NCBI GenBank assembly: GCA_003344405.1
Contig: NOWV01000131.1
Span: 186,001-212,989 of the forward strand
Direction of reading: 5' to 3'
DNA from: Trichoplax sp. H2
Taxonomy: Eukaryota
Length of the DNA stretch: 26,989 nt
In this document: positions 1-26,642 of the stretch, in pieces
Layout of the letters: every line of letters begins with the position of its first letter
Position numbering within the stretch: position 1 is the first letter of the stretch
Made by a program: the position numbers and the translations under genes
Notes under the pieces: generated by a model
What the model was told of the DNA's origin: nothing
What the model saw: the letters and a program-made list of their open reading frames with translations, nothing else
Database searches by the model: none

Positions 1-1077
1 TATGCCATGTGGTAATCCGTTAAAACTATTGAAGGAAAGCGTTCCATCATCTTTAGTTATACCTGTTAAAACTTTTATCTTCTTATTAAACGAGTTATTA
101 TTCAATAAGGTAACCGGATTATCTGGCAGTAATACCATATCGACAACTGGTTTAAAGGCAAAAAAGCTCGCTTTTAAGAGTATTAATTGAGCATTGAGTA
201 ACTGTTCAGTTGATAATTCCTTAATACATGTAGAACTAAGCTGGGTGGAACTTCGACTACAATTCGTTACTTGCGCTAACAGATTAAACTGTGCTTGAAC
301 TTGCAATAGCGTATAGCTTCCAATATCTAATAGTAATGGACCACTTTGTATAATTACTGCACGATAATATGGAAAGCTACTGGGCATGATAGTATGGTAA
401 GCCACAGAGAATGCGCCAGCAGAATTACCAGCAATCGTTACTCTTTTTGGATCGCCACCAAATCGTTGAATATTTTTAGCTACCCATTTTAGAGCTAATT
501 GCTGATCCAAGAGACCATTATTAGCCGCAAATTCTCGTTGCGTTCCACTTTCACCACTTGACATAAATCCAAAAATGCCTAACCTGTAATTTAATGTTAC
601 AACAACAATATTCTCCGAAGCGGCTAGAGTTTGGCCTTGCCACCATGCCCCAGAACCTACAATTAATCGACCACCATGAATCCAGACCAGGACAGAGAGA
701 TTGCCATCAACACTAGGCTCTGGCGTAAACACATTTAAATATAGGCAGTCTTCATTAATTTGAGATGATGAATCTTGTTGATCTAGCCAAGATATAGGTG
801 TCTTTTGCGGGCAAGATGCTGAATATTGGCTAGCATTTTTAACACCAGTCCAATTCATACGCAATTCGTTTGGTGGTTGAAATCGCCTTTCATTAATAGG
901 GGGCATAGCATAAGGTATGCCCCGATATATATAAATATCTTGTCCATATAAATTTACTATTGTTCCAATAACTTGTCCACGATCGGTGTTGACAACGATA
1001 TTACTTAAAGTAAAATTCGGCCAAAATAATACCAAAAGGAATGAACAAATGAAATAATGGATAGCAAAAAGTCTCAT
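1..1077 (-). CDS. G1: type-B carboxylesterase/cholinesterase-fold protein, exon 1, 3'-partial (continues past window start)
   Basis: Hand translation from the ATG at 1077 is open for 359 codons down to position 1. It reads MRLFAIHYFICSFLLVLFWPNFTLS (signal-peptide-like), RGIPYAMPP..RFQPP, NEDCLYLNVFTP, VWIHGGRL, NYRLGIFGF, NNGLLDQQLALKWV..NIQRFGGDP..TIAGNSAG (Ser codon 421-423), IIQSG and GITKDDG. It is probably missing from the ORF track because its stop lies outside the window. Confidence 0.95.
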   Translation of the reverse strand, partial: MRLFAIHYFICSFLLVLFWPNFTLSNIVVNTDRGQVIGTIVNLYGQDIYIYRGIPYAMPPINERRFQPPNELRMNWTGVKNASQYSASCPQKTPISWLDQQDSSSQINEDCLYLNVFTPEPSVDGNLSVLVWIHGGRLIVGSGAWWQGQTLAASENIVVVTLNYRLGIFGFMSSGESGTQREFAANNGLLDQQLALKWVAKNIQRFGGDPKRVTIAGNSAGAFSVAYHTIMPSSFPYYRAVIIQSGPLLLDIGSYTLLQVQAQFNLLAQVTNCSRSSTQLSSTCIKELSTEQLLNAQLILLKASFFAFKPVVDMVLLPDNPVTLLNNNSFNKKIKVLTGITKDDGTLSFNSFNGLPHGI

Positions 1078-7593: not shown

Positions 7594-8547
7594 GAACAAC
7601 TATAATTTAGGTCTTTGAATTTGATGCTAAAATTTCACAAATACAGATTACTACAACTTGGAGTCATTGGCACTTGATATTTTTAAACATTTTTACTGCA
7701 TTATTGAGTTACTTTATTTCTTTTAAGCCCTTGTAATCATAAGAGCTACACCAATGGGCTGAACTGAACAACTAGAATTAGGTCTATGAATTGGAAGGCA
7801 TTGACTTTGAATGGAGCTAAAATTTCACAAATACAGATTACTACAACTTTGAGTCATTGGCTCTTTTAAGCCCTTATAAGGGCTTAAATATGACTGAACC
7901 GATCAACTAGAATTAGGTCTATGAATTGGAAGGCATTGACTTTGAATGGAGCTAAAACTTGACAAATACAGATTACTACAACTTTGAGTCATTGGCTCTT
8001 TTAAGCCCTTATAATCATAAGGGCTTAAATATGACTGAACTAATCGACTAGAATTAGGTCTATGAATTGGAAGGCATTGACTTTGAATAAAGCTAAAATT
8101 TGACAAATACAGATTACTACAACTTTGAGTCATTGGCTCTTTTAAGCCCTTATAATCATAAGGGCTTAAATATGACTGAACTAATCGACTAGAATTAGGT
8201 CTATGAATTGGAAGGCATTGATTTTAAATAAAGCTAAAATTTGACAAATACAGATTACTACAACTTTGAGTCATTGGCTCTTTTAAGCCCTTATAATCGT
8301 AAGGGCTTAAATATGACTGAACCGATCACCTAGAATTAGGTCTATGAATTGGAAGGCATTGACTTTGAATGGAGCTAAAATTTCACAAATACAGATTACT
8401 ACAACTTTGAGTCATTGGCTCTTTTAAGCCCTTATAATCATAAGGGCTTAAATATGACTGAACTAATCGACTAGAATTAGGTCTATGAATTGGAAGGCAT
8501 TGACTTTGAATGGAGCTAAAACTTGACAAATACAGATTACTACAACT
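7594..8547. repeat. 141-bp tandem satellite (about 5.5 near-identical units plus a degenerate leading unit)
   Basis: The anchor CTAGAATTAGGTCTATGAATTGGAAGGCATTG recurs at 7772, 7907, 8048, 8189, 8330 and 8471 (spacing 135, 141, 141, 141, 141). A degenerate copy starts near 7594. Confidence 0.95.
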
Positions 8548-9608
8548 AGTTGACTCAATTCCTAGACACGACACAGACAAGCATTTGGATAACATACCAT
8601 GTTGATAATTTGTAATCTATGATTATAATTATTAGAACTTAGAACTTCTCTATCATAATTATAATTATCAGACATGACATTACGCTACGGTTCGGACTTA
8701 GTGTACTAGTGTAACGCTACACATATTTTAATGATTGTGCGCGACAAGAAAAGCACATCACCATGGCTAGACAAGGCATAATTTTATTCCAGCAATTCGT
8801 TCCATATCAGTGACGACAGTGCCAGTCTGTCCATTTAATTTAAAAGATAGCATTTCTTCTGAAATTAATCAACAAGACCAGATAGAAAACGCCTATACAT
8901 TTATTCTGTCACTTATAACGAATCCTTATTTAAGTTTATGCCTTATCATAAGTAAGTAAGATAATGCAGAGATTTTATTGAGATACTGCATGACCGGCAT
9001 ACGAATATGAAGATACGTTAAAAGATAGCCTCATACTACTGCACAATGTACATGCATTCTCTCGCTTATATCAAATCGCTATGGAAGCCTATGCCTTACC
9101 GTAAGTAGGTAATGCGCGATACGCATTCGAATACAAAGATGTGAAATACGTTAAAAGCCTAGCATAGTACATGTGAATACAAACGAAAATTGTGAAATGC
9201 CAACATTATCTTTAGGTATTGAGCTATGGAGGACTAGTTGTCATATATCTGAATCTTAGCCTTGATTAATGTTAGTACACGAAAATACACAACACTAGTT
9301 ATTCAATTAGCAATGCAATTCATACAGTTTACTACCGAAATAACGCTTGACAAGGATACGGTATCGTATCTGTTGCAAATCTTATTTCTAGGTAGTATTC
9401 CAATTCATTGCAAGTGTACACATTGTTCTGGCAAATTACCATAATAACTAACTAAAATCCTGCAATCTTACTTACTTAGGACTACATTAACATTAAAAAT
9501 ACTCGCATATACTATAAGTTAAGTTATAAACTTAAATTACTGTCCTCAGTCTTTTCCCTAGATAGAGTTACAGAGTTGGCTAAAATTGAAATATCTATAA
9601 TATATCGA

Positions 9609-9951
9609 TTAATTTTTATGGCTACCACCACCCCGACAATACGTAAAACACAAAATAAAGATAAGGAGAAGCAGAGCAGCACTAACACCAATCATAACAA
9701 ATGCTACAACTCTAAAGGTAGATTCTTGAACTACAGTTCCATTTGTAGTGAACATCATCGTTGGCTGAAATGTAACTGAAGTGGTGATGTCGAAAGGGGG
9801 TCCAAATTGAGGTGTCATATATTGATTGAAAAAGGCGATCTTATTACGTTTATAATTCGTAACAGCTTTCATTGATTGAAGACTAATATTTAAGCAATTG
9901 GGATTGCTAGAATTATACTGAGGCCAAGTCACTTTCGATGTAGAAGGATCT
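9609..9951 (-). CDS. G2 exon 2: end of esterase domain, Thr-rich stalk, transmembrane helix, short tail
   Basis: Acceptor tattgtcAG|A GAT CCT restores G|DPSTSKVTWPQY in frame after a phase-2 intron (9952-10467, 516 bp). TM segment VVAFVMIGVSAALLLLIFILCF; protein ends RGGGSHKN*. Confidence 0.9.
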
Positions 9952-10467
9952 CTGACAATAGAGTAATTATAAGAATATGTTATAGAAACAGTTTATTGTA
10001 CATCTTTTAAATTCAGTACTCTACACGTAATTTATTCGACAGATTCTAAGTAGGCTATATTGTAAGAGGGCAGTATTATAAGGAAAGAGGGAAGCAGTAA
10101 TTCTGTATTATGGTGTAAATAAAATGCTAGCAACATATCCTTTTATCAAATATTCTATTTATGTATACAAGATAGTGGTGGACTACCTTTGGAGACTGCC
10201 TTTTATTAAACTGACCGTTGTAGATTTAGGCTGTATCTACGGCATGATCTTGTTTTGGTAGTGTACTTTATTTTGTCGTTGACATTTACTATTATTACTT
10301 TAAACCTTAAATTATAATTTACTTTTATTTATTTTATGTCTACCTTATTGTATACTCTTTTAACGCATAAATACAGCTTGATCTTGTTGCATACTGTAGC
10401 ATTATTCGCATCTAGTCATAATTAGAGTGGGAGTGTTGAAAGTTTCAGACCATTAAAGAAAACTTAC

Positions 10468-11921
10468 CCTGTATGAATAAAATTTCCCCACATCTTCATG
10501 GAATCTCTACTTAGTTGCGCTTCAGCAGTAGTAAAATTAGTTAGATAATAAGCAGGTTTTTGGACTGGGTAGCCGTAAAAATATGGTACATCCATACTAT
10601 GAGTTACACCCATATAAGCTGGCAAATATATATCTTGCTGTGTATGATAAGTCCAAACATAATTATATGTTGGGGCATGTTTAGAATATTTTTGGGCCAT
10701 GAAATCAGAAGTTGAAAGAAATAGAGCATCATTGGATAGTTCGCCTAACTTCATTCTATTAACGGTTGGCGAGTCGATATTAGTATAATCAGTATATCTA
10801 TTAATAACGGAAGCTCTAGCCGATGGAGGATATTCCCTAAACCAATTACTGACATAACCCAAGAATACTTGTCTAGTGACTAATGGAGGAATAAAAGAGT
10901 AACCGTCTTGTAAAGTTGTTCCGATCAAAAGTCGGCCTTTAAAAAAGCGACCATCCTGGAGTAATTTCCTAGGATTTTCATTAAGAAATCGACCATCGAT
11001 GACAAGACCAAAATTTGCAGGATTTTCTCTCAACAACGCAAATTGAATTTGTAACAGTATTGTAGAATTGTACTTATTGATGCATTGATAAATTGCACGG
11101 AGGTTGGAAGTATTACATTGACCTACTTGGCCAATTCTTAGAAAAGTAGCTCGTGCTTCTGCAACGGATCTACCGTCAAGGATAGTTCCGCTTTCCATGA
11201 TTGCATAGCGATATAATCCACTACTACTAGGCGCTACTAGATGTATTCCAACAGCGAATGAACCAGCAGAGAAACCAGCTAAAGTTACAGCATCCTTATT
11301 ACCGCCAAATTGCTCGATATTATTTTGTACCCATGCCATTGCTAGTTGCTGATCTAAAAAGCCAAGGTTGGCTTGGATAGAACGGCTATTTGCATTGGCT
11401 TCTCCTGAAGTCGTGAAACCGAATATACCCAATCTGTAATTCATGGTAACTACAACAATATCTTCCATTACTGCTAATGTTTGCGGCTGCCAATTAGCAC
11501 CACTTCCACCTATGTAGCCACCACCATGAATCCAAACCATGACGGATTTATTGCCAGCTATACTTGGCGCAGTAGTAAAGACATTTAAGTATAAGCAGTT
11601 TTCATTAATGATACTTTCTGGAGCTGTAAGTGGCGATCTGAAGACTGGAACAAATTGAATACATGAACTGCTATACTTTGTGGCATTTAATACACCGGGC
11701 CATGAGGAATTTAACGGCCGAGATGGCTTAAAACGATTCACACCGATGGGAGGTTCAGCAAAAGGAATTCCCAAATATTTATGTAAAGTTGTTTGACCAA
11801 CCAGTTCCGTTGTGCCCCTAACAAGTCCTTTATCGGTGTTAACGATTATTTGACCGATTGAATTCGATGTTAAAATTCCCAAAATAATAAAAATGGAGGC
11901 ATGAAAACAGTAGTAAGCCAT
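10468..11921 (-). CDS. G2 exon 1: carboxylesterase/cholinesterase-fold catalytic domain (spliced protein 598 aa)
   Basis: Signal peptide, LGIPFAEPP, NENCLYLNV, WIHGGGY, GFSAG (Ser 11268-11270), MESG, GTTLQDG (Asp 10905-10907), GVTHSMD (His). The exon ends WGNFIHT-GG|GTAAGT, so the ORF-track stop lies inside the splice donor. Confidence 0.95.
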
Positions 11922-14688
11922 TTTCCTTTTTACTCAGTTAATTACTGGTATAGGGAATAAAACAAGTACTTAAAATTGTAATAAAATTAACAACAACTTG
12001 TCTTAATTAGCTAATAGTTCATCAATAAACAGCCAAAAACAACCTGTTGAAAATTCACTACCACACACCGTAGACGTTTCTTTTATCTTTTTGTTTGTGG
12101 TAACTAAAGCTTTGGAAGTTCTATGTATTGACTACTGAATAGCACTTACTATAATTACCATATCTTTTCCAGGCGGTCTACCAATGAGATGTAACGCTGA
12201 TGTAGTTGCTTTTGTGATACCTTCCTTTCATGGGATATCTAAATTATTCTTACTCTAAGAATAATTATAGGACATACTATTATATACTTTCCGTTATGAT
12301 CATCACAGTAAATTACCATCAGCATAAATTCAGTAAACTGGCTGATTAATTAGCAAACTTCACGTGACACCATCATTTTATTGCTTGTAGAAAAATTTTA
12401 AGCTATGATATGAATATTCCAAGAGCACAGTATACTATGACACTTATATTATTAATTTTACAATTACTATATATATAAAGAGATAGTAGTCTTGATTCGA
12501 GTTGAGAAGACGAGGATTATGTCGGTATTAGGATCGCCAACCTTAATAACATACGGCTTAGGTTAGGTTATAATATCGAATAGATTTACGATAAGAATTG
12601 GCCTTTGATATACTGTAATGCTGATAAAGATAATTTCGGGACAATACAGGGTGTGGAAAGGCGGATATAACAAAATAAGTTTCAGCAAATACAAGCAAGT
12701 AACGTACTTATAACCAATCATTAATTTGTTAATTGTTGCTATCTGAAGATCGAATTTTTTTGATTATCATATATAATGACTCCGTTATACAGTTTAGAAC
12801 GTAGAACTTCGTTAAACAAATGAATAACGAGCTCAAATGCTCAATATATACTATACTACGACATGTGTATATTGAATTTTAAATGCTTATTGTCGAGCAA
12901 AAATAGAGTTATATAATTTAAAGTTTTTAATGCAAAAATTAATTTGATTTATTCGAAGTAGAAATAGCCATATCACGTTATTCGGACTTTCCTACAGTAA
13001 AGTACAGGTTACTACTCTTGTTTAATAGCTTACATATACGATAGAATTATATGCGTATCTAGTATTCATTCTTACATCTATGATTTTTTGAGATTATGAT
13101 TCTACTTATAGACTGATTTAATTTTATAGTTATTTTAATGAGGCTAAAAGTCAGTAAGAACTACAGAAGTTTTTTTCCTAATATCGTATGACTAGATCAG
13201 TAAACTACTCTACTAGAGAAACAGCATCAATTAATTTTCAGGAGTATTTAATACAGGTTGCTGGGAGGTAGATAAAAGCGAGGTATTATTATATTTCGGG
13301 AGGATTTTTTAAAGAAACATAAGCTGCCGGAAGTAATTGCCCTACTATCAAAACAATTAACAGCCAATAGTTATATAATTACTAGCATTTTAATGGATGC
13401 TAAAATGAATTTATATCATTTTAGTGACTCATATTTCGTTAAGTACCGCCCTTGTATTCTTTTTACAACAGCTATTAGCAATAAAGATTATCTCATATCT
13501 TTCACTCTGATGTATAGTATTAATATCCTACTTTCAAACCGATATGAAAGCAACATTAATCTTAGTAGGTTGAGATTAAAATCAATTTACTAATCCTTGC
13601 TGGCCTATTTCACAATTTTAATTGCGCTGTTATACCTGCTGTACGCCTTTAAAACTATATTTTATTACTAATGTACAGCGATACTATTCTTTTGTTAATG
13701 ATTCAAGTAATTAATAGTTTCTTTCCGCTCATCTTAGCGATAACGCCATGATATAACATATACTAGCAGTTAAAAAATTTCCTATCGCTGAAACACTATA
13801 ATTATTTATCATATCAATAATGAAGCACAGTAAGATACCCTAATTTAGAACAATTTATTTGTTCCAGATCTTAGGTTGCTAATCCGCTTAATATGCAACA
13901 AAGCTGGTAAGAAGTTGCTTAAATGAGATTAAGCGCATGTTTCCACCAAAAGTGAAATATTTAATTGAACTGCTACTAATCAAGATTACTTATAAATCAA
14001 AAAAGTACTTTCTAATATCAACTAATTTAATAGCCCCAGGACGAAACTATATTTTCTTAGTAACTTAGCATAATTAATATAAGCTATTTATTAATTAATA
14101 GGTACTCAATATCCATACAAATTGATCCACAAATTCATTTTACTGTTATAAAGTGTACTGTATGATTGTAAAAACTTTCTTATTATTAAAAGTCAACTTT
14201 TATAAAGCATGATATGGTTATACTGAGAAATTAGGTAAATAACCATACCAAAACATGCATGCAAGATTTTAATGTCATTTATTAGGTCATCTGCGACTAA
14301 ATCGCATTTTTAAGTGTAGGAAAACTTTACGCAATCTTTCAAGCTAACACTTTTATTAATGCTACACGATAGATTATAAATTATCTAGAAGTGAAATCTT
14401 TACACACAAAGTCATGTCGTCTTAATCTTCTCAGTGATTGTAACTTATCTGAGATTGGACCAGAGCTTTAGAACAATCTTATGAAAACTTAAAAAGCAGT
14501 TTTTTAATTTCTGCATCATCTTATTATACTTATTAACAGACAATTATGTTAAAAATCCTACAATGCCACGCTAAAGCTAATACTCAGCATTTTCCCATTT
14601 AACGGTATAATGAATAGTGCATTATGACAATAGTAAAATAGTATCTTAACGAGGTCGATTATATAATTATGAATTCAACTTTAAATTT

Positions 14689-15031
14689 CTACGCAGCATA
14701 TTGCTCTTTGCCTTTGTTTAATTTGCAAAGTAGGATAATTACAATAAGCAATAATAATCCAGTAACACCTGCTAAAACATACGTTGAAATCATATAGGTT
14801 GATTCCAATGAATTCGATACTGTAGAAGCCATTGTTGATTTGGAAGTTGTAAGTGGAGGTGTATTTGTATTTGTGAGTGTAGCAAGTTGGGGAAGATATT
14901 GATTCCAAAAGGCGAATGGCTTACTATAGTAATTCTTTGCAATTGCCAATTTAGGTGCAATCCACATGTAGTCTTTGCTGGTTTCTCTATATCTTGGCCA
15001 AGCTGGTGAAGAGCTTAAATCTGACGGATTT
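14689..15031 (-). CDS. G3 exon 2: end of esterase domain, Ser/Thr stalk, transmembrane helix, short tail
   Basis: Acceptor ataatttAG|A AAT CCG gives G|NPSDLSSSPAWPRY after a phase-2 intron (15032-15301, 270 bp). Contains AFWNQYLP, stalk TNTNTPPLTTSKST and TM VLAGVTGLLLLIVIILLC; ends KLNKGKEQYAA*. Confidence 0.9.
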
Positions 15032-15301
15032 CTAAATTATCGTAGTAAAGGGAGTTAACTATTTCGTGATTGACCTTGTATCATTATATATATATCATTA
15101 TACATTGTATAACAGTCTAGCTAGCTCTAGATATTAATTAATAAACAAAATTTAATTCATGCTTAATATTTTTGTCTGCCTTAGTTATTACCAAGTTGTA
15201 ATGTAAAACTTATAAATTATTAATTATCGCAATTCTTAATCTAGTTTACAACCATATGCGGGTATTTACACGTATATAGCAATTGCTGAAAGACTACTTA
15301 C

Positions 15302-16797
15302 CCTTGACGAATAAAGTTACCCCAGTATGCCATAACCTGTCGGCATACTTGTCGATCGGTATCATCAAATTTGTCTGGAAAATTTGCAGGTGGATCTAAT
15401 GGATAGCCAAAAACATATGGGATCTCTATAGTATGCACTGCCTTAGCAAATGAAGGCATCGCGGTTCCTGCAGTGCGATGAGCAAATATGTAGGTATAGG
15501 TTGGTACATATCGAGAAAGCGCATCTGCATAATTTTCGTTAGGTACACTAAAGCGATAATCATTGAGCATATCGCCATACTGATCTCTATTAACGCTTGG
15601 TGAGCTAACATTGGCCCAGTTAGTATACTGATATTGGATAGAAAGTTTTACACGTTGATTTGCTGCTGGAAAATTACCATTGACATAATTTTTAAACTGA
15701 TTTTGTGAAAGTCCTTGAGATATATTTGGCATAAGTAATAAGAAAAAATAGCCATCATTCAACATCGTGCCTATCATGATGTCGGCCTTATTAAACTTTC
15801 CTGAAATTATAGCTTTGTAAGATGATTCTGGTAGTATATCGCCATCAACAATGGGTGAATATGGATTAGTTCCAAGGAATCTCATTTGAAGTTGTACCAA
15901 TTGCTGGGCTGGTAGGGTTCTTAGACAATTTACAGTCTCTGTTGTGATGTTTTTGTAACATCTAGCTACCGTGCTATACTGTACAAAGAAATTTTTAGCA
16001 TCAGATAGTGTGAACTCGGTCGTCAATTTAGCTTTCTGATAAGATGGGAAATCTCCAAAAATACCACTTTGTATGATAGCGCGGCTAAATAATCCTTTGC
16101 TAGATGGCATAACCAGGTGATTGGAAACAGCAACTGCTCCAGCTGAGTTACCTGCTATTGTAATTTGATCTTTATTACCTCCGAAATTTTCGATATTCTC
16201 TCTAACCCATTTCAAGGCCAAATTTTGATCTTGTAAAGCTAGATTTGCTGGAATAGTCCTTTGATTGGCATCCTTTTCACCTGACGTCATGAAACCAAAG
16301 ATTCCAAGTCGATAATTTATTGTAACAACAACGATATTTTCGTTAGCAGATAAGACTTGTCCTTGCCACCATGCGCCAGTTCCATAAAGGAATCCACCAC
16401 CATGTATCCATACGAGTACTGACATATTCCCGGCTTTGCTAGGGTTAGGTGTAAAAATATTAAGGTAAAGGCAATCTTCACTGACTTGTATTTTATGCGA
16501 ATTTTGACTTAAAGGGCCTACGAGATTCGGTTGAGAACAATCTTTTTGATATTCAGTAGCATTTAGAACACTAGACCATTGCTCTTTGGGTACTGGCGGC
16601 TTAAATCGTAGCTGACCTACGGGAGGCTGAGCGTAAGGAATGCCGAGATAGGCAAACTGATCAGTACCATTAGTATTTACTATTTTACCACTAACTGAAC
16701 CAGCTGTAGTAGAAATGATTAGTTGAGCTTTAGAATAAGGTAATAATGCAATAGTTAATATTACAATACAGCTTGCGGTAAATCTTTCCAAAGTCAT
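15302..16797 (-). CDS. G3 exon 1: carboxylesterase/cholinesterase-fold catalytic domain (spliced protein 612 aa)
   Basis: Signal peptide, LGIPYAQPPVGQLRFKPP, SEDCLYLNIF, WIHGGGF, GNSAG (Ser 16144-16146), IQSG, GTMLNDG (Asp 15754-15756), AVHTIE (His). Ends WGNFIRQ-GG|GTAAGT. Confidence 0.95.
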
Positions 16798-18086
16798 AGT
16801 ATTGCTTTAGATTAATCTTCCTTAATAAGTTCGGTATTCTTCTTAATAGTGAAAGAAGTTGAAAGAAACGTTGAAAAGGATTTAGCTTAAATGTACAGAA
16901 TTAAAGGTTTTCCACCAACGATACGAGTACAACCTAAACTTCTTGAGGTGTTACAGCGCTAGCGTTTATATATATAATCTGGATCGAATAAAGCTGTCCT
17001 AAAGAGCTCTAGTAAAAAATATTTTAAATAACTTAATTTCATAAGATTATGAAAAGGTCACCCATCCTATGTAAATAAGAATATTAGTATTATTTAGATG
17101 TGACTTACATGACCATCCAGTAACCGTACGGTCTATTGAAGGGACTACTGCACTAAAAAAGAAAAAGAGGGACCTTATAAGCATGCAGCTAAGTTGGTTT
17201 TGTTCAGTATGATATACGATTTCATTGGTATCGTATAATAGAATGGCCGGGAAAATGATAGGCCTCCACATTATTTTGCATATCACCTCCCTTTTTCTTT
17301 TCTACGACGAGAACAATAATTACTGTCTTATTTCCATGACATAAGGTGTTATTAATATATCACCATGGTATCCATGTATTATATTTACCGTTAGTAATTG
17401 AACACTTGTTTGATGTTAACAATTACAATTTATACCGGTTCAAACTTTAAGAAAGTTATGTGCATTATAGTTGTTGACAATGGCATCTTTTGAAGAGATT
17501 TGCATGCTTAATAATACCCTAATATGGCTAAAAACCTGATTACAGTACTGTAATGAATCTTATTTTCTCCGCATTTAGTCTGAATGGACCATGAATGGAC
17601 GGACCATCTTTATTATTGATCCAGCGAAAGCTCTTAAAATCGGTGTAAATCAGAGTCCTGCAAAGCTACAATTACGCTTGACTGTCTTAAGTAATCGAAG
17701 TGAATACTGCGCATTACTATTACTGTACTACAGTATCCTTAAATGGAGTAAAAACGCAACCTGAACCCGATCAAATTGTAAGCCGAAAATGAGTGCAATC
17801 GCTATGCTAACTCTGTATTGCCACAGAAATTCTTAACCGGAATCCCGTCCTCGAGTCGGGTTTCGGGGTTAACTTTTAAAGGACACTGCTTGAGCCTTTC
17901 CATATTGGTGAATGATTAATGTAATAAATCTCATGTTATCCAGATATGGTCAAAGGAACAATTTGCATCATTAACTGATTGATAAATACAGTACACTTGA
18001 TTATCTTGAGGCATCGTCAATTGTCATAGAAGTAACAGAAAAAATAAAAATTTGGTGTACGGTCAGTAGACACTAAGTAATAATAA

Positions 18087-18160
18087 TCTATACGGCGAAG
18101 CGTGCTGAGCAAAAGCTGGATTCGACAGTACCCGTTTTACAACGGGTATTACCAAACTAG
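18087..18160 (+). mobile_element. Candidate 74-bp non-autonomous Helitron
   Basis: Starts A|TCTATAC, has the subterminal hairpin TACCCGTT-TTAC-AACGGGTA (18129-18148), and ends 8 nt later in CTAG|T. It is GC-richer than its AT-only flanks and has no target-site duplication. Confidence 0.6.
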
Positions 18161-19895
18161 TATATTATAAATCTTCTTATTGTGCAGCCGCTTATCGATT
18201 TTGCAATTAGCACGGTTGCAATCCTTGATCCAGACCAAGAAAATTGACTATTAAATGACTTCAACTCGAACAAATGCGTATTACAAGCAAAAATAAAATA
18301 TGATTACTCTATAGCTTGTTTTCTGTATCCTATTATATCGTCAAATTTCGAAAATAAATTAGCATCACACAAACCTACGAGTATATTATGATACACTAAA
18401 TTCTTACACGTTTAAACTAATCTAGACGTCGTTCTTCTCAGTCTCTCTGTTCACGTAAAGAAATTAATTATCACTGGGGTTAGAACTACTTTCTTCTCAT
18501 AATTATCAATGAATAAGCATAGAGGTCAGTCATTAAATAAATAAATTATAATTATTACCACACATCACATGTCAATGCTGTACGCAGGGCATAATAGCTA
18601 GCAGTCGATGTTTAATAGTGTAGCATTAGCTACAGGTGTTGGATAGCTAACAGGTCAAAATGGTGATCAATATTTTCCCAACCAATTGCTCTAATAATTA
18701 ATCGTCTAAAAGTAGATTGAGTTCTGCTTTAAAGCTATACAAGATATATAATTTCAACCTGATTGATCAGGGTAATTATTTGTCCATACATCTGCATGAT
18801 GAAATCAAATTCTTACGGTAAAGTGGTAGAAAGGTTATACATATTTATTTTAATTTTGCAAATACAATCGAGATTTAAATCGTTCGTTTGAAATTTTCAA
18901 CGATTAATTAAACTGTAGTAATTAGTCTTAGAATTCATCTGAGGTAAGATAAGGGTGGTTAGTGCCAGCGTTGATTGCAACAGTTATAGAATAAGTTACA
19001 CAGCATATAGTAGCAATGTAGAAATGTGCTAAAGCTTGATTTTAGGCTTTTCTTGCATATGTCCATTAGTTCAGGTTATATATCTACTATACAAGATCTC
19101 ATTTAAATCTTTTTTACTATACAACATGTTTTAGTATCTATTAACTACCGTCTAACTGTCCAAGCTAATCATCACCTAGATAGACGAAAATATATCGAAA
19201 TGTAGAAAAGAAATGGTCTACTTAAGACCAAAAACATCTCACGTTTGGATGTGAATATCTCACTTGAGTATAATACGTAACTGAATATTTTAGTCTCCAA
19301 ATTCTGATTCAACGTAGCCTGCAATGGAATACGCGTAGGCGCACAATTGCACAGCAAATTGAAATTTGGAGACCCTACGCGTGCTTTGTCTTCCTGCGGC
19401 AAAACAAGAATTAAAAGATATCTGCAATAAAATAAATCTTTACAAGTATGCAATATGTTCGCAATGAACTTTTATTTTATACTTATTACTATTTAAAATT
19501 TTAGTTTGGATACTATAATGTTGTTGACCATCGGGCTTATGAACTCTAGTAGGTGCCTTCGTGGATGGAAGCTTTGGTTAAGGATCCGTTATAGATGTTT
19601 AGGTACGGACGATCAAATAACAATATGGGAGGGGAATAGAAGTACTTTGTTAAGAAGGGAAAGAGTAATAACAGATTCCTATCAACTTCGCACGTCTCGG
19701 GTTATAACTTATAATCATCTGCGAGAGCTAGCAACAATTAAGACTTAATAGAAAGATAGGAAGTGAAGTAAAGTATGCAGCGCAAAGTAACAAATCCGGA
19801 AGCTGGATTCTACTAGGATAAAGAATAGCCATGTAATAGTATACCGTAATATATGCTCTACAGTGTACAGCTAAAGAAGTAGCGAGAATAAATAT

Positions 19896-19901
19896 TTTAT
19901 T
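19896..19901 (-). promoter_or_regulatory. Candidate polyadenylation signal for G4
   Basis: AATAAA on the minus strand about 140 nt past the stop. The hexamer is common in AT-rich DNA. Confidence 0.35.
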
Positions 19902-20040
19902 TAATACTACGAAGAGGGCTTAAGTAAGGCAAGTAACCTGCAAGTATACTTTCAGCAGTACAAATCTCAAAATGATACGATATTGTTATAATTATATTAA
20001 TTAACAATTAACTTCAAATTCCGTATACTTGCTGATGAAG

Positions 20041-20383
20041 TTAGACCAACACTTCTTTACCTCGTCGACAGCGCATAGCAAGTAAGATAACCACAATGAT
20101 AAATAAAGCTGCACTCACTCCAATCAAGGCGTAAGTAGCAACCTTGAAAGTCGAACTCTGTGTAACAGAGCCAGAGGGAGTAGTTACGGATTGAGTCGGA
20201 GGTTGAGTGCTAGCGGTAGGATTATTAGCTAACGTAAATTTTACATTTAACAAATTATTAAAGAAAGCAATTTGATTACGCTTGTAATTGGTTACAGGAT
20301 TATAGCCTTTGGCTGTAATAGTCAAGTAGTAAGTATTGGTATTTGTGTATTCTGGCCAAGAAATCCTTGTAGTGGATGGATCC
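20041..20383 (-). CDS. G4 exon 2: end of esterase domain, Ser/Thr/Pro stalk, transmembrane helix, short tail
   Basis: Acceptor atcttaAG|G GAT CCA gives G|DPSTTRISWPEY after a phase-2 intron (20384-20636, 253 bp). Aligns without gaps to G2 exon 2 (VTNYKRN.IAFFN, IGVSAAL); ends RCRRGKEVLV*. Confidence 0.88.
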
Positions 20384-20636
20384 CTTAAGATTTAAGTAAA
20401 AAAGTCGAAATAACTCTTAGTTAGATATCTCAAGGTTCTAATACTGATGTAACTCTACTTGGACGATTTAATTTCTATTCATCGAGTTTTAAATAATCTG
20501 AACTGTATACTAGTATAGTTATATTTTATGTACAGCATTACTGAAGTCGATCAACTAGTGAGTTTTTCTTTTAAACACTACAAGATATTAATCATTCTAG
20601 CTGTAAGGTAGCAGGATTACATTGTCTAGTTCTTAC

Positions 20637-22102
20637 CCAGTGCGTATAAAACTTCCCCACATAGCCATCATATCTTTACTCAAATCAATTTCTGCTGAAG
20701 TAAAATTTGATAAAAAGCCGGAAGGTTTATTAACTGGATAGCCAAAGACATAGGGTAATTCTGCACCATGACTCACACCAGTGTTAGGCATTAAATAAGC
20801 TGATTGATTTGTTCGATGAGAGAAAACATAGGTATAGGTAGGAGAATAAATAGAATGATATCCAGCAACGAAATCCGCTGGTGCAACGAAGAGTGAATCG
20901 GTAGATAATTCTCTTAGCATATGCAAATTACTTGTTAGAGAGTTGATGTCATTATAGTTTGTATATCTGCTAATAATAACATCTTGACCTAAATCATTAT
21001 ATATTCTATTAAACCAGTATTTTATAAAGCCTAAATAAGCTGGCCTAGTTACTTGAGGAGGTACGTTTACGTAGCCATCTTGAGCTGCAATTCCCATTAG
21101 TAGGTTGCCTTTCTTAAATCGACCTGCTGCCCAAGCTTTTCTAGGATTCTCTACAATTAATTTACCGTCTACCGTAACACTAAAGAATCCGAAATCTTGA
21201 AGCAACATTGAAGAGGATGCTTTTAAAATTATTGCCACACTTAAACTACGTACACACTGAGTCACAGTAGCAACAGTAGTGCCATTACATCCTGCTTGTT
21301 TACCAAACTTCAGGAAAGCTTGACGAGCTTCTGCCATGGATTTGTAGGTATGACTATCGAATACGGCTCCACTATGCATAATAGCATAACGAAATAATCC
21401 GTAACTGCTAGGTGCTAATACGTGAATACCTACAGAGTACGCACCAGCTGAGAATCCAGCAATAGTAACTGCTTCTTTATTACCACCAAAGTTTTCAATA
21501 TTATCTTATACCCACTTTAAAGCCATTTGTTGATCGAGTATTCCTAAGTTAGGTTGAATAGCATTATTACCGGGATTATCTTCACCAGAAGTTAGGAAAC
21601 CAAACGCACCCAATCTGTAGTTCATGGAAACGACAACGATACCTTCTTTAGCTGCTAGTGTTTGCATCTTCCAACCAGCTCCAGTACCAACAATAAAACC
21701 GCCACCATGAATCCATACTAGAACGGACATGTTAGCAACAGCGACTGGTTTTGTAGTAAAAACGTTAATATATAAGCAATCTTCATTGATTTGATGTTCT
21801 GGTGTATTAGGTTGTGTTCCACCAACAGGTGTAAATTGAGGGCAAGAATTTTTATATTGGCTTCCGTTTAAAACGCCAGACCAGGCCGATGTTAACGCTT
21901 TCGGTGGCATAAAGCGTAGTGAACCGATTGGAGGTTGAACGTAAGGAATGCCCAAATAAGAATGCACTGTTGTTCCATCAATAATATCTGACTTTCCACT
22001 GATGAGGCCATTATCTGTTCTAACAGTGATTTGGCCGGAATTATTAGGCACGAATAATGTTAAAACTAATGCTAAAAGAATCCATGAAAGATGTACTGCC
22101 AT
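20637..22102 (-). pseudogene. G4 exon 1: carboxylesterase domain interrupted by one in-frame TAA (21506-21508); recent pseudogene, null allele or base-call error
   Basis: ORFs 21506-22102 and 20633-21379 share one frame. Read-through gives [59 protein letters not shown] and GVSHGAE are intact. Ends WGSFIRT-GG|GTAAGA. Confidence 0.88.
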
Positions 22103-22556
22103 CCTCGTTCTATCTCAAGCTTTATCTACTAAGAATCATCTGCGACTATTTTAGATATTTATTTGAGGAATAAAATTGATGTCAGTTTATTTATTTTATT
22201 TGATTGAAATTTGTTGTTGATGCCAACGCCTAATTTGGATGTCTCTATTATAGTCTCATCTCGACTCTTTCGAAAACCACACAAGTATTCATGTTATCGT
22301 TGATGCCAGTATGGCTTATGCTACTATACTGTACTGTACTGAAAAGGAAGCAGTGGCTAAGATAGAGGAGTTTCTTGATCCTTTAGGTCCTTATAGGAAA
22401 TGAGACTATCTCTCTAGTATTCTCATGAGAAATAGTATGCTAAAAGGATAAGGCAATTAGGGCATTGATAGTATTACGTGTAAGAATAGGAAAGGAAATG
22501 TATTTATGGCCCGAACCGCGAACCCAGACAGTGATATTAAACAAGTCGGGATTAGC

Positions 22557-23403: not shown

Positions 23404-23705
23404 TATCATACAGTTAACTATACATACAGTATACTGTCCATACAGTTAACTGAAAGATTACTTCAAAAATCTGCTTATATGCTAGATATCGGTAAAGTAT
23501 CAATAAATTGATATCTTACCTATACAAGCATTTTAATACATACAGTTAACTGAAAGATTACTCCAAAAATCTGCTCATATGCTAGATATCGGTAAAGTAT
23601 CAATAAATTGATATAAGTTGATACTTTACCTATCCATTTTTATACATACAGTTAACTGAAAGATTATTCAAAAAATCTGCTCATACAGCATGCTAGGGGT
23701 CGGTA
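23404..23705. repeat. About 100-110 bp satellite, left copy (2 full units plus a partial)
   Basis: ACAGTTAACTGAAAGATTA occurs at 23442, 23542 and 23648. Confidence 0.92.
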
Positions 23706-24042
23706 TAAAATACAGTACAGTATTTGCTTGTTAGTTTTAGTTACATTTTCTCCCTTTTAAAGCGTCTAAAACGAAATAAAAGACGCGGTATACCAGATCA
23801 CAGGTTCTATCTTCAGAGACCATGACAGACTTTATAATGCAATTTACAACAGTATTTTCGTATTGAGTAAAGTGTTACTCCCAGCCAGGCAACAATATTC
23901 CGCGAGCATCAGTAAAGACATTTAGTAGTAATAAAAATATTATTAAAACAGGTCATCCATGAGACGTTTTTGATACTACCATATGCTATTGAAGTAAGCA
24001 AAACGATTCCTCTTTATGAGTAGCAAATATACAAATTATCTA

Positions 24043-24062
24043 NNNNNNNNNNNNNNNNNNNN
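24043..24062. other. Assembly gap (20 N)
   Basis: Run of 20 n characters. Confidence 1.
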
Positions 24063-24690
24063 TATCATACAGTTAACTATACATACAGTATACTGTACAT
24101 ACAGTTAACTGAAAGATTACTCCAAAAATCTGCTTATATGCTAGATATCGGTAAAGTATCAATAAATTGATATCTTACCTATACAAGCATTTTAATACAT
24201 ACAGTTAACTGAAAGATTACTCCAAAAATCTGCTCATATGCTAGATATCGGTAAAGTATCAATAAATTGATATCTTACCTATACAAGCATTTTAATACAT
24301 ACAGTTAACTGAAAGATTACTCCAAAAATTTGCTCATATGCTAGATATCGGTAAAGTATCAATAAATTGATATAAATTAATATTTTACCTATACAAGCAT
24401 TTCAATACATACAGTTAACTGAAAGATTACTCCAAAAATCTGCTCATATGCTAGATATCGGTAAAGTATCAATAAATTGATATAAATTGATACTTCACCT
24501 ATACAAGCATTTTAATACATACAGTTAACTGAAAGATTACTCAAAAAATCTGCTCATATGCTAGATATCGGTAAAGTATCAATAAATTGATATAAATTGA
24601 TACTTTACCTATACAAGCATTTTAATACATACAGTTAACTGAAAGATTATTCAAAAAATCTGCTCATACAGTATGCTAGGTATCGGTATA
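24063..24690. repeat. 100/110-bp satellite, right copy (5 full units plus a partial)
   Basis: ACAGTTAACTGAAAGATTA occurs at 24101, 24201, 24301, 24411, 24521 and 24631. The 110-bp units carry an extra ATAAATTGAT-like decamer. Confidence 0.95.
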
Positions 24691-25559: not shown

Positions 25560-26400
25560 GTTGTTTATTGACAAGATAACCAAAAACAGAAGGTATTTCC
25601 ATAGTGTGAACTATTGTATCTTCAGATAAGAGTAGTACAAACTCCCGTCGCTTTGCTGACGGTTTACGATAATGTGCTCATTTATTAATAATTAACTGAT
25701 AGTATTACCATTTGATAGACCTGTCAGATAACAACCGTTATAAGAAAATGTAACAATCAAAATGGCTATGTAGAAAACTCTATAAAGATTCTATGTTTAT
25801 TTAATTTTTATCAGAGTATTACATGAAATCAAAATTTAAAGGCCCAGTGGCCACCCTTAGCGATATAACGAATACCATTTCAATAATCAGTACTATGCAG
25901 AAATTACTACCTTAGAGCTATTCGTTTTACGTAAAGAAATCTTTAGGCAAAAAGTACTGTAAGAATCTTATACTGACCTATTGAAATGAACCCATAATCA
26001 GATGGATGATCGGCTTGTGCCACTAGTACGATGAGCAAATATATAGTTACATGTCGGCACATGTCTAGAAAATTGATCCACGTAATACTCATTAGGTATA
26101 GCAAAGACGAAATGGTCAAATAATTCTCTATCTTGATCTAAATTCAATATCGGTGAATTAAAACTAGTCCAACTTGTATATCGATATTGTGTAGATATTT
26201 TTACGCGATGACTTGTAAAGGTTAAGGCATTATTAGTAATAGGTATGAAAGCATGACGTGCTATTCCACTTTTCAACACTTGAAGAACTGAGTAGAAAAG
26301 CGAGACCGAAATAGCCATCATTCAACTAGAAATCTTTGCGATAGTATGGCTGTATATGCGCCTTCTTGTATAGTACTACTATCAGGAATAGGAATGCTAA
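25560..26400 (-). pseudogene. G5: decayed carboxylesterase fragment, most similar to G3
   Basis: Frame-shifted pieces match G3. PIPDSSTIQEGAYTAILSQRF vs PIVDGDILPESSYKAIISGKF; LNDGYF (about 26308-26325); RVKISTQYRYTSW..PNEYYVDQFSRHVPTCNYIFAHRTSGT vs RVKLSIQYQYTNW..PNENYADALSRYVPTYTYIFAHRTAGT; and VHTMEIPSVFGYLVNK (25564-25611) vs VHTIEIPYVFGYP. It carries a deletion, frameshifts and an insertion. It may extend weakly to about 26560. No N-terminal half or exon 2 was recognised. Confidence 0.88.
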
Positions 26401-26642
26401 GGGCAGGATCATTTGGTCGCTAAATAATGTTCGTCTTATCAACTTGTAGTAAAACATTGTTGAAAAGATGCCTGTATTGTAATACACGTGTAAGTGCACT
26501 GTATATTGGTATATGAAAAGATGTTCGATAAACTAGTTACTGAATTGCACGAAAGAGATCTAAAAACAAGATAGAAATCTTTAATTTAAATAGAGAGGAG
26601 ATCACGATTACGGTTTAATTTTGATATTAAAAAATACATTTA

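What the first reader, a model, noticed from the sequence alone, without database searches (positions are those of the whole stretch)
9609..22102. Array of catalytically intact esterases with neuroligin-type membrane architecture
Seen: after splicing, G2, G3 and G4 each encode signal peptide, cholinesterase-like domain, Ser/Thr-rich stalk, one TM helix with a juxtamembrane Cys, and a tail of about 10 aa. All keep GxSAG, an acid residue and His. Known: this layout is that of neuroligin and gliotactin (cholinesterase-like adhesion molecules), which have lost the catalytic Ser; active relatives are mostly secreted, ER-retained or GPI/partner-anchored. Inference: this is an expanded family of cell-surface ecto-esterases that could resemble the enzymatic precursor of neuroligins, or a convergent surface digestive/signalling system. 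The ORF track hides it because the TM exons appear as separate small ORFs.
Basis: partly seen in the sequence, partly recalled or inferred. Interest (0 to 1): 0.8.

Follow-up and report, generated by a model that had tools for sequence, protein, structure and literature searches.

The report
Membrane-anchored active esterase genes in Trichoplax
This stretch of a Trichoplax (placozoan) genome carries a tandem row of expressed genes for carboxylesterases that keep their catalytic residues and end in a membrane anchor, a layout that is real but also occurs in nematodes and other animals, so it says little about the origin of neuroligins.

Summary
The window is Trichoplax DNA. G2, G3 and G4 are minus-strand, two-exon type-B carboxylesterase genes. 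The exon joins I predicted are found exactly in RNA-derived contigs of public runs. Each protein has a signal-like N-terminus, a complete COesterase domain with Ser/Asp/His and HGGG, a 30-35 residue Ser/Thr-rich linker, a 23-26 residue hydrophobic helix with a Cys at or just after its end, and an 8-11 residue basic tail.

One correction: the two G4 ORFs are separated by an in-frame TAA (21506-21508), not an intron. All four runs laid read mainly CAA there.

Active esterases with this layout are already known: 17 of 33 C. elegans CEST enzymes (PMC12931606). I also found them in a hemichordate, an amphioxus and a chiton. Public Trichoplax models of paralogues already include the anchor.

The placozoan genes form their own well-supported clade on an unresolved backbone. 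A clade with neuroligins is neither supported nor rejected (p-AU 0.353).

Verdict: a real, expressed, lineage-specific family; a new member of a known kind.

The parts
1..1077 (-). 5' part (first 359 codons) of a further COesterase gene (G0) that runs off the left end of the window
   Evidence: Pfam PF00135, E 4.2e-99. 356 of 359 residues identical to stored protein P0010 (633 aa), which has a C-terminal hydrophobic helix and a 10-aa basic tail.
10468..11921 (-). G2 exon 1: signal-like N-terminus and COesterase profile positions 3-472. Ser218 at 11268-11270, Asp339 at 10905-10907, His441 at 10599-10601.
9952..10467 (-). G2 intron, 516 nt, GT..AG, phase 2 in a Gly codon
   Evidence: Predicted. 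One X5 contig of 2586 nt joins 9951|10468.
9609..9951 (-). G2 exon 2 with stop codon: end of the COesterase domain, 35-aa linker, hydrophobic helix (9636-9710), 8-aa tail
15302..16797 (-). G3 exon 1: signal-like N-terminus and COesterase domain. Ser218 at 16144-16146, Asp348 at 15754-15756, His455 at 15433-15435.
   Evidence: 529 of 533 aligned residues identical to TRIADDRAFT_1836.
15032..15301 (-). G3 intron, 270 nt, GT..AG, phase 2
   Evidence: The join 15031|15302 is present in X12 (RNA on record) and X5.
14689..15031 (-). G3 exon 2 with stop codon: end of the domain, 30-aa linker (13 Ser+Thr), helix (14725-14802), 11-aa tail
20637..22102 (-). G4 exon 1: COesterase domain. Ser218 at 21449-21451, Asp342 at 21077-21079, His445 at 20768-20770.
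21506..21508 (-). In-frame TAA at codon 199 of G4, in place of Gln. It is not an intron.
   Evidence: Read mainly as CAA in 4 of 4 runs laid. P0013 has Gln there.
20384..20636 (-). G4 intron, 253 nt, GT..AG, phase 2
   Evidence: The join is present in X12 and X5 (listed as 20382|20636, cut +1).
20041..20383 (-). G4 exon 2 with stop codon: end of the domain, 35-aa linker (14 Ser+Thr), helix (20074-20142), 10-aa tail
18824..20040 (-). Probable G4 3' untranslated region, about 1.2 kb
   Evidence: One X5 contig covers 18824-20138 on the minus strand, with a loose run of T before 18824. This is inference from a single contig.
26004..26446 (-). Degenerate fragment of another COesterase of the G3 subclade (matches residues 282-437 of P0005 in three pieces)
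   Evidence: tblastn: 68% identity over 91 aa, plus two shorter pieces in other frames. ORF 25998-26321.

Best explanation
The region is part of a placozoan-specific, tandemly duplicated family of type-B carboxylesterases. In the window this is G0, G2, G3, G4 and one decayed fragment.

Each protein most likely enters the secretory pathway through an N-terminal signal peptide. It folds as a glycosylated alpha/beta-hydrolase with a working Ser-Asp-His triad and oxyanion hole. A flexible Ser/Thr-rich stalk and one C-terminal helix then hold it on the lumenal or extracellular face of a membrane. A basic stop-transfer tail of 8-11 residues follows, and its Cys may be palmitoylated.

The proteins would hydrolyse, or transfer, carboxylic esters close to the membrane. 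They are not cholinesterases and not neuroligins. The closest known counterparts in architecture are the membrane-anchored CEST carboxylesterases of C. elegans.

Shown here: gene structure, transcription and splicing, domain, catalytic residues, the hydrophobic C-terminal segment and monophyly of the placozoan clade.

Inferred: type-I topology, enzymatic activity, palmitoylation, and where the proteins sit. A plausible role is tethered digestive or detoxifying esterases, either on the feeding epithelium or in endolysosomal or secretory-granule membranes. Substrate and location are unknown.
For: - Trichoplax origin: best hit 99% identical to TRIADDRAFT_1836.
- PF00135 hits at E 1e-110 to 1e-126 for exon 1 of G2 and G3. 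PDB acetylcholinesterase at E 1.7e-87 over residues 23-499 of G3, with Ser, acid and His aligned.
- Ser/Asp/His and HGGG are present in G2, G3 and G4.
- Exact splice joins in RNA-type contigs of two runs. Exon 2 completes Pfam positions 473-515.
- Best 19-residue Kyte-Doolittle windows at the C-terminus score 2.85-3.01 in G2-G4. Hydrophobic runs are 23-26 aa and tails carry 2-4 Lys/Arg.
- By contrast, eight homologues whose hydrophobic end lies 0-7 residues from the C-terminus score only 2.05-2.38. They include an Anopheles acetylcholinesterase.
- The placozoan clade is starred in three trees.
- The same layout is reported for 17 of 33 CEST enzymes.
Against: - No activity, topology or localisation data exist for any of these proteins.
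- Signal peptide and TM calls are heuristics of my own, so a GPI signal is not formally excluded.
- The residue before the catalytic Ser is Asn or Phe, not the usual Glu, and the acid is Asp. Activity is therefore assumed, not known.
- Truncated CEST-9.2, the only CEST enzyme purified, showed no activity in vitro (PMC12931606, abstract and passages). The nematode analogy therefore gives no firm biochemical precedent.
- G4 as written in the window carries a premature stop.
- Contig depths cannot rank expression.
Confidence: 0.7

Rival explanations
1. Proto-neuroligin reading. These are surviving representatives of the enzymatic, membrane-anchored ancestor of neuroligins, or they already act as adhesion or signalling partners of placozoan neurexin-like proteins.
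For: - Same gross order of parts as neuroligin: signal, COesterase domain, stalk, TM.
- Neurexins are reported in Placozoa, while neuroligins are listed only down to Cnidaria (PMC10084454, table passage).
- A clade of placozoan genes plus neuroligins is not rejected (p-AU 0.353).
- PMC11294457 (passages) speaks of neuroligin homologues in ctenophores and sponges. It says putative neurexin partners of Trichoplax are expressed in epithelial, lipophil and some peptidergic cells. Its supplements were not seen, so I do not know whether these genes are meant.
Against: - No tree puts them next to neuroligins. In some searches neuroligins sit with vertebrate CES rows (82, 87), together with cnidarian and deuterostome rows; they stand alone on the open backbone.
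- Cytoplasmic tails of 8-11 aa have no conserved end motif.
- The catalytic Ser is retained.
- TM-anchored active esterases occur in several separate places of the tree and in nematodes, so a membrane anchor is not a neuroligin-specific trait.
- Alie and Manuel 2010 (PMC2824662, passages) count neuroligin as a eumetazoan gain.
Confidence: 0.07
2. GPI-anchor reading. The C-terminal hydrophobic segment is a GPI attachment signal that is removed, so the mature enzymes are lipid-anchored like the H form of acetylcholinesterase.
For: - The hydrophobic segment lies near the C-terminus and follows a stretch rich in small residues (Ser, Gly, Asn) that could hold an omega site.
- GPI anchoring is common in this family. 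Eight homologues have GPI-like ends.
Against: - Every placozoan full-length protein examined (9 of 9) has 2-5 Lys/Arg in a tail of 8-11 aa directly after the helix.
- Their hydrophobic runs are 20-27 aa. The seven scanned score 2.57-3.01 on the best 19-residue window.
- The GPI-like rows have 0-7 residues after a weaker segment (2.05-2.38).
- The Cys at or just after the end of the hydrophobic run is found in G2-G4 and three paralogues, and would have no role if the segment were cut off.
Confidence: 0.12
3. Internal-organelle reading. Like C. elegans CEST enzymes, the proteins sit in lysosome-related or secretory-granule membranes. There they build or trim small-molecule esters, rather than acting as ecto-enzymes on the cell surface. 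This is a variant of the best explanation that differs in location and chemistry.
For: - The architecture matches the CEST enzymes, which are predicted to be lysosomal and are linked to ascaroside and glucoside modification (PMC12931606).
- Short tails are typical of resident lysosomal membrane proteins (recalled, not tested).
Against: - No Tyr-x-x-hydrophobic or di-leucine sorting motif is conserved in the tails (my reading).
- Relatedness to CESTs was not tested, because no CEST sequence was on hand.
- No localisation data exist.
Confidence: 0.25
4. Cholinesterase reading. As some automatic names suggest ('Acetylcholinesterase', 'Cholinesterase' in Trichoplax sp. H2), they would hydrolyse acetylcholine in a non-neuronal cholinergic system.
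For: - The best solved-structure matches are acetyl- and butyrylcholinesterases.
- Automatic names.
Against: - The column of the choline-binding Trp holds Trp in 0 of 19 placozoan rows, against 48 of the 123 rows in all.
- The motif is GNSAG or GFSAG instead of GESAG, and the acid is Asp.
- The Cys of the third disulfide is missing.
- The cholinesterase clade excludes them in three trees.
Confidence: 0.03

Closest known systems
C. elegans CEST carboxylesterases (e.g. CEST-9.2, CEST-1.1, CEST-2.2)
   Same: Signal peptide, a COesterase domain with a Ser/acid/His triad (named for CEST-9.2), an unstructured linker (shown for CEST-9.2), one C-terminal TM helix, and a multigene family. 17 of 33 have the signal peptide and TM (PMC12931606, section 7 and Table 1).
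   Different: CEST-9.2 has Glu as the acid, while the placozoan genes have Asp. Common descent of the anchor was not tested. CESTs are tied to nematode pheromone chemistry, for which nothing comparable is known in placozoans.
Neuroligins and other cholinesterase-like adhesion molecules
   Same: Same order of parts outside the cell: signal, COesterase domain, glycosylated stalk, single TM.
   Different: The five NLGN4 rows have Gly in place of the catalytic Ser (GSGAG) and about 120-160 residues after the helix. Here the Ser is kept and the tail is 8-11 residues. No supported sister relation was found.
Acetyl- and butyrylcholinesterase
   Same: Best sequence matches among solved structures (E about 1e-87 to 1e-80). 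Same fold, oxyanion hole and first two disulfides.
   Different: No choline-binding Trp, no Glu before Ser, Asp instead of Glu in the triad, and no third disulfide. Cholinesterases are anchored by GPI or partner proteins rather than a TM helix of their own (PMC12931606 introduction).
TM-anchored, triad-intact COesterases of Ptychodera flava (P0229), Branchiostoma (P0238) and the chiton Liolophura (P0116)
   Same: Full COesterase domain (Pfam), Ser/acid/His intact, strong C-terminal helix and short tail of roughly 15-24 aa.
   Different: Glu as the acid. They lie elsewhere in the tree: the two deuterostome genes pair with each other (89) next to cnidarian genes, and the chiton gene is unplaced. 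All are uncharacterised automatic models.
Public Trichoplax models of paralogues (TRIADDRAFT_32073; Trichoplax sp. H2 RDD37467.1, RDD37473.1, RDD41637.1)
   Same: Same family and the same C-terminal helix and tail, already joined in the deposited models.
   Different: They are paralogues of the window's genes, 41-78% identical. The deposited model of G3 itself is partial and ends before the helix.

Membership tests
Type-B carboxylesterase/lipase (Pfam PF00135 COesterase) | Profile match above the curated cut-off over the whole domain | tested here: met
   370-422 bits against a cut-off of 27 for exon 1 of G2 and G3, profile positions 3-472. Full-length paralogues cover 3-515 of 515.
Type-B carboxylesterase/lipase (Pfam PF00135 COesterase) | Nucleophile elbow G-x-S-x-G, acid, His, and the HGGG oxyanion hole | tested here: met
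   GFSAG (G2, G4) and GNSAG (G3); Asp; His; HGGG at residue 132.
Cholinesterase (AChE/BChE) | Choline-binding Trp of the omega loop (feature recalled; column taken from the BChE and AChE rows) | tested here: not met
   Trp in 0 of 19 placozoan rows. G2, G3 and G4 have other residues in a shorter loop.
Cholinesterase (AChE/BChE) | GESAG motif, Glu as triad acid, and third disulfide | tested here: not met
   Asn or Phe before Ser, and Asp as acid. The Cys column of C-x-F-W holds Ile, Phe, Ile.
Cholinesterase (AChE/BChE) | Falls inside the cholinesterase clade | tested here: not met
   The cholinesterase clade (support 92, 97, 96) excludes the placozoan clade.
Neuroligin | Catalytic Ser lost | tested here: not met
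   Ser218 is kept in G2, G3 and G4. NLGN4 rows read GSGAG.
Neuroligin | Long cytoplasmic domain with a C-terminal PDZ ligand (feature from PMC10084454 passage) | tested here: not met
   Tails of 8-11 aa with unlike ends in 9 of 9 placozoan proteins.
Neuroligin | Single TM after an O-glycosylated stalk | tested here: met
   Hydropathy and Ser/Thr counts. Heuristic only.
Neuroligin | Sister to or inside the neuroligin clade | tested here: inconclusive
   Not recovered in any tree, but not rejected: lnL difference 6.3, p-AU 0.353 (37 rows, LG+G4). The same test under the mixture model did not finish.
Neuroligin | Binds neurexin LNS domains | not testable with these tools
Nematode CEST-type membrane carboxylesterases | Signal peptide, intact triad, unstructured linker and C-terminal TM | tested here: met
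   compared with PMC12931606 Table 1 and Figure 3 legend.
Nematode CEST-type membrane carboxylesterases | Common descent with CEST genes | not tested
GPI-anchored esterases | Hydrophobic signal at or within a few residues of the C-terminus, with no basic cytoplasmic tail | tested here: inconclusive
   Leans against. Tails are 8-11 aa with 2-4 Lys/Arg and the helices are stronger than in eight GPI-like homologues. No validated GPI predictor was available.

The most novel reading that the evidence does not exclude
Membrane anchoring came before loss of catalysis in the lineage that gave rise to neuroligins. On this reading the placozoan proteins are living examples of that stage: active ecto-esterases that also engage the neurexin-like proteins of an animal without synapses. 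My data do not exclude this (p-AU 0.353 for a placozoan + neuroligin clade). Nothing positive supports it beyond the shared order of parts.
Probability: 0.06. Interest if true: 0.75.

Novelty: new member of a known kind. Interest (0 to 1): 0.3.

Why it matters
If the reading holds, placozoans keep a dozen or so membrane-tethered, probably active carboxylesterases with an unusual Ser-Asp-His triad, and at least four lie in this window. These animals digest food outside the body beneath a flat epithelium, so enzymes fixed to the membrane would not be lost to sea water. That makes the genes reasonable candidates for digestive or detoxifying surface enzymes, and good markers to look up in placozoan cell atlases.

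For synapse evolution the result is sobering. A membrane anchor on a cholinesterase-like domain is widespread and scattered in the tree. It cannot by itself mark a neuroligin ancestor.

In six full-text searches I found no open paper that describes these placozoan genes. Lenfant et al. 2014 (J Mol Neurosci), which may treat them, is not held; I saw it only as a reference entry.

Tried and rejected
- Whole-genome access: none is held for this window, so the full size of the array and family could not be counted on the genome.
- AU test under the site-heterogeneous model with 66 rows: it did not finish in three runs. I replaced it with 37 rows under LG+G4, a weaker model.
- Earlier notes of this scan, searched by place, sequence and words: nothing.
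- Literature: Trichoplax + neuroligin + cholinesterase gave 0 papers. The placozoa + cholinesterase and placozoa + carboxylesterase lists and Trichoplax + esterase + digestive held nothing on these genes. PMC8961645 says nothing on placozoan cholinesterase. A search for the ESTHER and Lenfant work was swamped by unrelated 'Esther' papers.
- A tiny intron at the G4 stop: rejected. The only GT..AG there spans 7 nt and would shift the frame, and contigs run straight through with C in place of T.
- TAA read as Gln by the organism: rejected. G2 and G4 end in TAA and G3 in TAG at the expected protein ends.
- Intron cover in X1 and X4, and parts without cover in X12 and X5, are not used as evidence either way.
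- Joins 17008|17117 (X5, four extra letters) and 21347|21422 (X12, not canonical on the minus strand, 74 nt) remain unexplained.
- Not done, for lack of sequences given by a tool: placing CEL, gliotactin, neurotactin, nematode CESTs, and sponge or ctenophore genes in the tree; comparing neurexin-contact residues.
- No structure prediction or complex prediction was run. The fold is clear from sequence, and I claim no binding.

Full report
**What the window is.** The window is AT-rich eukaryotic DNA (GC 0.27-0.40). Exon 1 of G3 is 99% identical to 'TRIADDRAFT_1836, partial [Trichoplax adhaerens]', and the next hits are further Trichoplax proteins from the same 1.2-Mb contig. G3 differs from that protein at 4 of 533 aligned residues, and G0 from stored protein P0010 at 3 of 359. 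The window is therefore Trichoplax adhaerens or a very close relative, but not the same assembly. No whole genome is held.

**Gene models.** All genes found lie on the minus strand.
- Pfam finds COesterase (PF00135) in ORFs 1-1077 (G0, which runs off the window), 10467-11921 (G2), 15301-16797 (G3), and 21509-22102 plus 20636-21505 (G4).
- A short-chain dehydrogenase lies at 5878-6846.
- Each long esterase ORF ends at ...GG|GTAAG.
- 253-516 nt downstream, an AG is followed by an ORF that continues the frame through the split Gly codon.
- This gives G2 = 10468-11921 + 9609-9951 (598 aa), G3 = 15302-16797 + 14689-15031 (612 aa) and G4 = 20637-22102 + 20041-20383.

**Transcription and splicing.** I laid the contigs of four public runs on 9500-22200. 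They join 9951|10468 (X5), 15031|15302 (X12, on record as RNA, and X5) and 20383|20637 (X12 and X5). These are exactly the predicted points. X1 and X4 do not show the joins; X1 also covers the introns and intergenic DNA. Exon 2 is also needed for the fold. Exon 1 alone stops at position 472 of the 515-position Pfam profile, while full-length paralogue models reach 515.

**The G4 stop codon.** They are adjacent in one frame with TAA at 21506-21508, where G2 has Gln. The only GT..AG there spans 7 nt.
- In all four runs the T of this codon is read mostly as C: depth 224.2 of 287.8, 8.3 of 8.3, 194.7 of 208.1 and 586.8 of 586.8.
- Stored ORF protein P0013, from the 1.2-Mb contig, has Gln there and is otherwise identical (488 of 489).
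- The window's TAA is thus a minority allele, a strain variant or an assembly error. The gene is intact in most public data.
- The organism does not read TAA as Gln in general: G2 and G4 end in TAA and G3 in TAG at the expected places.

**Catalytic machinery.** Against solved structures the best matches are acetylcholinesterases (E 1.7e-87 over residues 23-499 of G3). The nucleophile Ser, the acid and the His align, as do the oxyanion-hole glycines and the Cys pairs of the first two disulfides.
- In a 123-row alignment, G2, G3 and G4 read GFSAG/D/H, GNSAG/D/H and GFSAG/D/H (codon positions).
- Asp as the acid is a mark of the placozoan clade. All 19 placozoan-clade rows have Asp at the acid column. 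Outside that clade only one of the remaining rows does.
- They are not cholinesterases in the strict sense. The choline-binding Trp column has Trp in 0 of 19 placozoan rows, the residue before Ser is Asn or Phe, and the Cys of the third disulfide is missing.
- The role of that Trp, and the statement that bile-salt-activated lipase also uses Asp, are recalled knowledge and were not tested here.

**The C-terminal part.** After the last helix of the domain come the following parts:
- a linker of 30-35 residues with 11-14 Ser+Thr and 3-4 Pro;
- an uncharged run of 23-26 residues, whose best 19-residue Kyte-Doolittle mean is 2.85-3.01;
- a tail of 8-11 residues with 2-4 Lys/Arg;

The N-termini have a hydrophobic core followed by small residues at -3 and -1 before a conserved Gln (my reading).

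**TM helix or GPI signal.** I had no predictor. Eight homologues whose hydrophobic end lies 0-7 residues from the C-terminus, including an Anopheles acetylcholinesterase, score only 2.05-2.38. The placozoan proteins score 2.57-3.01 and always carry a basic tail. I read this as a stop-transfer membrane helix (about 0.85) rather than a GPI signal (about 0.12).

**Family and phylogeny.**
- The window holds four esterase genes plus a decayed fragment at 26004-26446.
- Named T. adhaerens relatives are TRIADDRAFT_1836, 2392, 32073, 34819, 32071 and 1914. With P0010, P0013 and G2, the family has at least nine genes. At least six of the stored proteins come from one 1.2-Mb contig.
- G2, G3 and G4 are 40-49% identical to each other, so the duplications are old.
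- In a 66-row tree (LG+C20, quick search) the 16 placozoan-type rows form one clade (SH-aLRT 100). G3 groups with TRIADDRAFT_2392 and 32073, and G2 and G4 with 32071.
- The backbone is a polytomy. Neuroligins sit with vertebrate CES (82), and cholinesterases form their own group (92).
- Smaller LG+G4 trees agree.
- Holding placozoan rows and neuroligins together costs 6.3 lnL units, p-AU 0.353, so this is not rejected. The test under the better model did not finish.
- The sample lacks invertebrate neuroligins other than amphioxus, and also gliotactin, CEL, nematode CESTs, sponges and ctenophores.

**Is the layout special?** No.
- A 2026 paper on C. elegans CEST-9.2 tabulates 33 CEST carboxylesterases. 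Seventeen have a signal peptide and a C-terminal TM, and all 17 are predicted to be lysosomal.
- CEST-9.2 has a Ser/Glu/His triad and an unstructured stretch before the helix (PMC12931606; I read the abstract, passages and section 7 with Table 1).
- The 120 hits included a chiton protein (P0116) with an intact triad, a strong C-terminal helix and a short tail.
- Among 82 single-domain-length proteins out of 140 new ids, the same layout turned up in a Ptychodera flava protein (P0229) and a Branchiostoma protein (P0238).
- In the tree the two deuterostome genes pair with each other next to cnidarian genes, far from the placozoan clade. The anchor is scattered across the tree.
- Deposited models of Trichoplax paralogues (TRIADDRAFT_32073; three Trichoplax sp. 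H2 proteins) already include the helix and tail. The model of G3 itself is partial and stops before the helix.

**How it most likely works.**
- Shown: expressed two-exon genes encode a complete COesterase domain with all catalytic residues and a C-terminal hydrophobic segment.
- Inferred from general knowledge of secretory and type-I membrane proteins: co-translational entry into the ER; N-glycosylation (6-9 sequons); retention in the membrane by the helix with the tail in the cytosol; the catalytic domain on a roughly 30-residue O-glycosylated stalk facing the lumen or the outside; possible palmitoylation of the Cys.
- The enzymes would act on carboxylic esters near the membrane.
- Whether they sit on the feeding surface, where tethering would keep digestive enzymes from diffusing away, or in endolysosomal or granule membranes as in the nematode case, cannot be told from sequence.

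**Literature on the neuroligin question.**
- Alie and Manuel 2010 count neuroligin as a eumetazoan gain, absent from the ancestral animal set (PMC2824662, passages).
- A 2022 review lists neurexins in Cnidaria, Placozoa and Porifera but neuroligins only in Cnidaria (PMC10084454, passages).
- A 2024 paper says neuroligin has homologues in ctenophores and sponges. It also says putative neurexin partners in T. adhaerens are expressed in epithelial, lipophil and some peptidergic cells (PMC11294457, passages).
- Six searches found no open paper describing placozoan carboxylesterases as such.

**Verdict.** Three of three genes share intron position, phase and C-terminal design, and the joins are seen in RNA. 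The exception is the G4 'splice', which is a stop codon. The family is a lineage-specific expansion of a known kind of protein. The link to neuroligin ancestry stays open but unsupported. Interest is modest.

Noticed in passing
window 5875-6846 (-): Complete single-exon gene for a 323-aa short-chain dehydrogenase/reductase (adh_short, E 1.4e-39). It has a hydrophobic N-terminus and sits between esterase genes G0 and G2.
   Followed up: partly
window 26004-26446 (-): Decayed fragment of a fifth COesterase gene. It matches residues 282-437 of TRIADDRAFT_32073 in three pieces in different frames, so the array continues to the right as a pseudogene.
   Followed up: partly
window 7719-8547: Tandem repeat of 141 bp x 5.9 copies (92% matches). 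It produces spurious repeated ORFs on the minus strand (7903-8616).
   Followed up: no
window 23407-24668: Two arrays of a related 100-110 bp tandem repeat (23439-23685 and 24096-24668). Each is preceded by a 16-bp repeat, and they flank a 20-N assembly gap at 24043-24062.
   Followed up: no
window 17132-17979: Contig depth about three times that of neighbouring bins in run X1, with many loose ends at 17736-17862 in X1, X4 and X12. This is probably a dispersed repeat between G3 and G4.
   Followed up: no
window 17008-17117 and 21347-21422: Two unexplained joins in contigs. 17008|17117 (X5, with four extra letters) lies upstream of the G3 start and could be a 5'-UTR intron or a variant. 21347|21422 (X12, 74 nt, non-canonical ends on the minus strand) lies inside G4 exon 1, and X5 has matching loose ends.
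   Followed up: no
proteins P0121-P0133 and others: The top representatives are very long proteins with 2-7 separate COesterase stretches, for example 3380 aa with 7. They are probably tandem esterase arrays merged into one gene model in other genomes.
   Followed up: no
window 9730-14418 versus runs: Runs labelled organism A (X1, X5) carry many single-base differences from the window in G2. Runs labelled organism B (X4, X12) match G2 contigs with 0-3 differences. The window's haplotype is therefore closer to organism B there.
   Followed up: no
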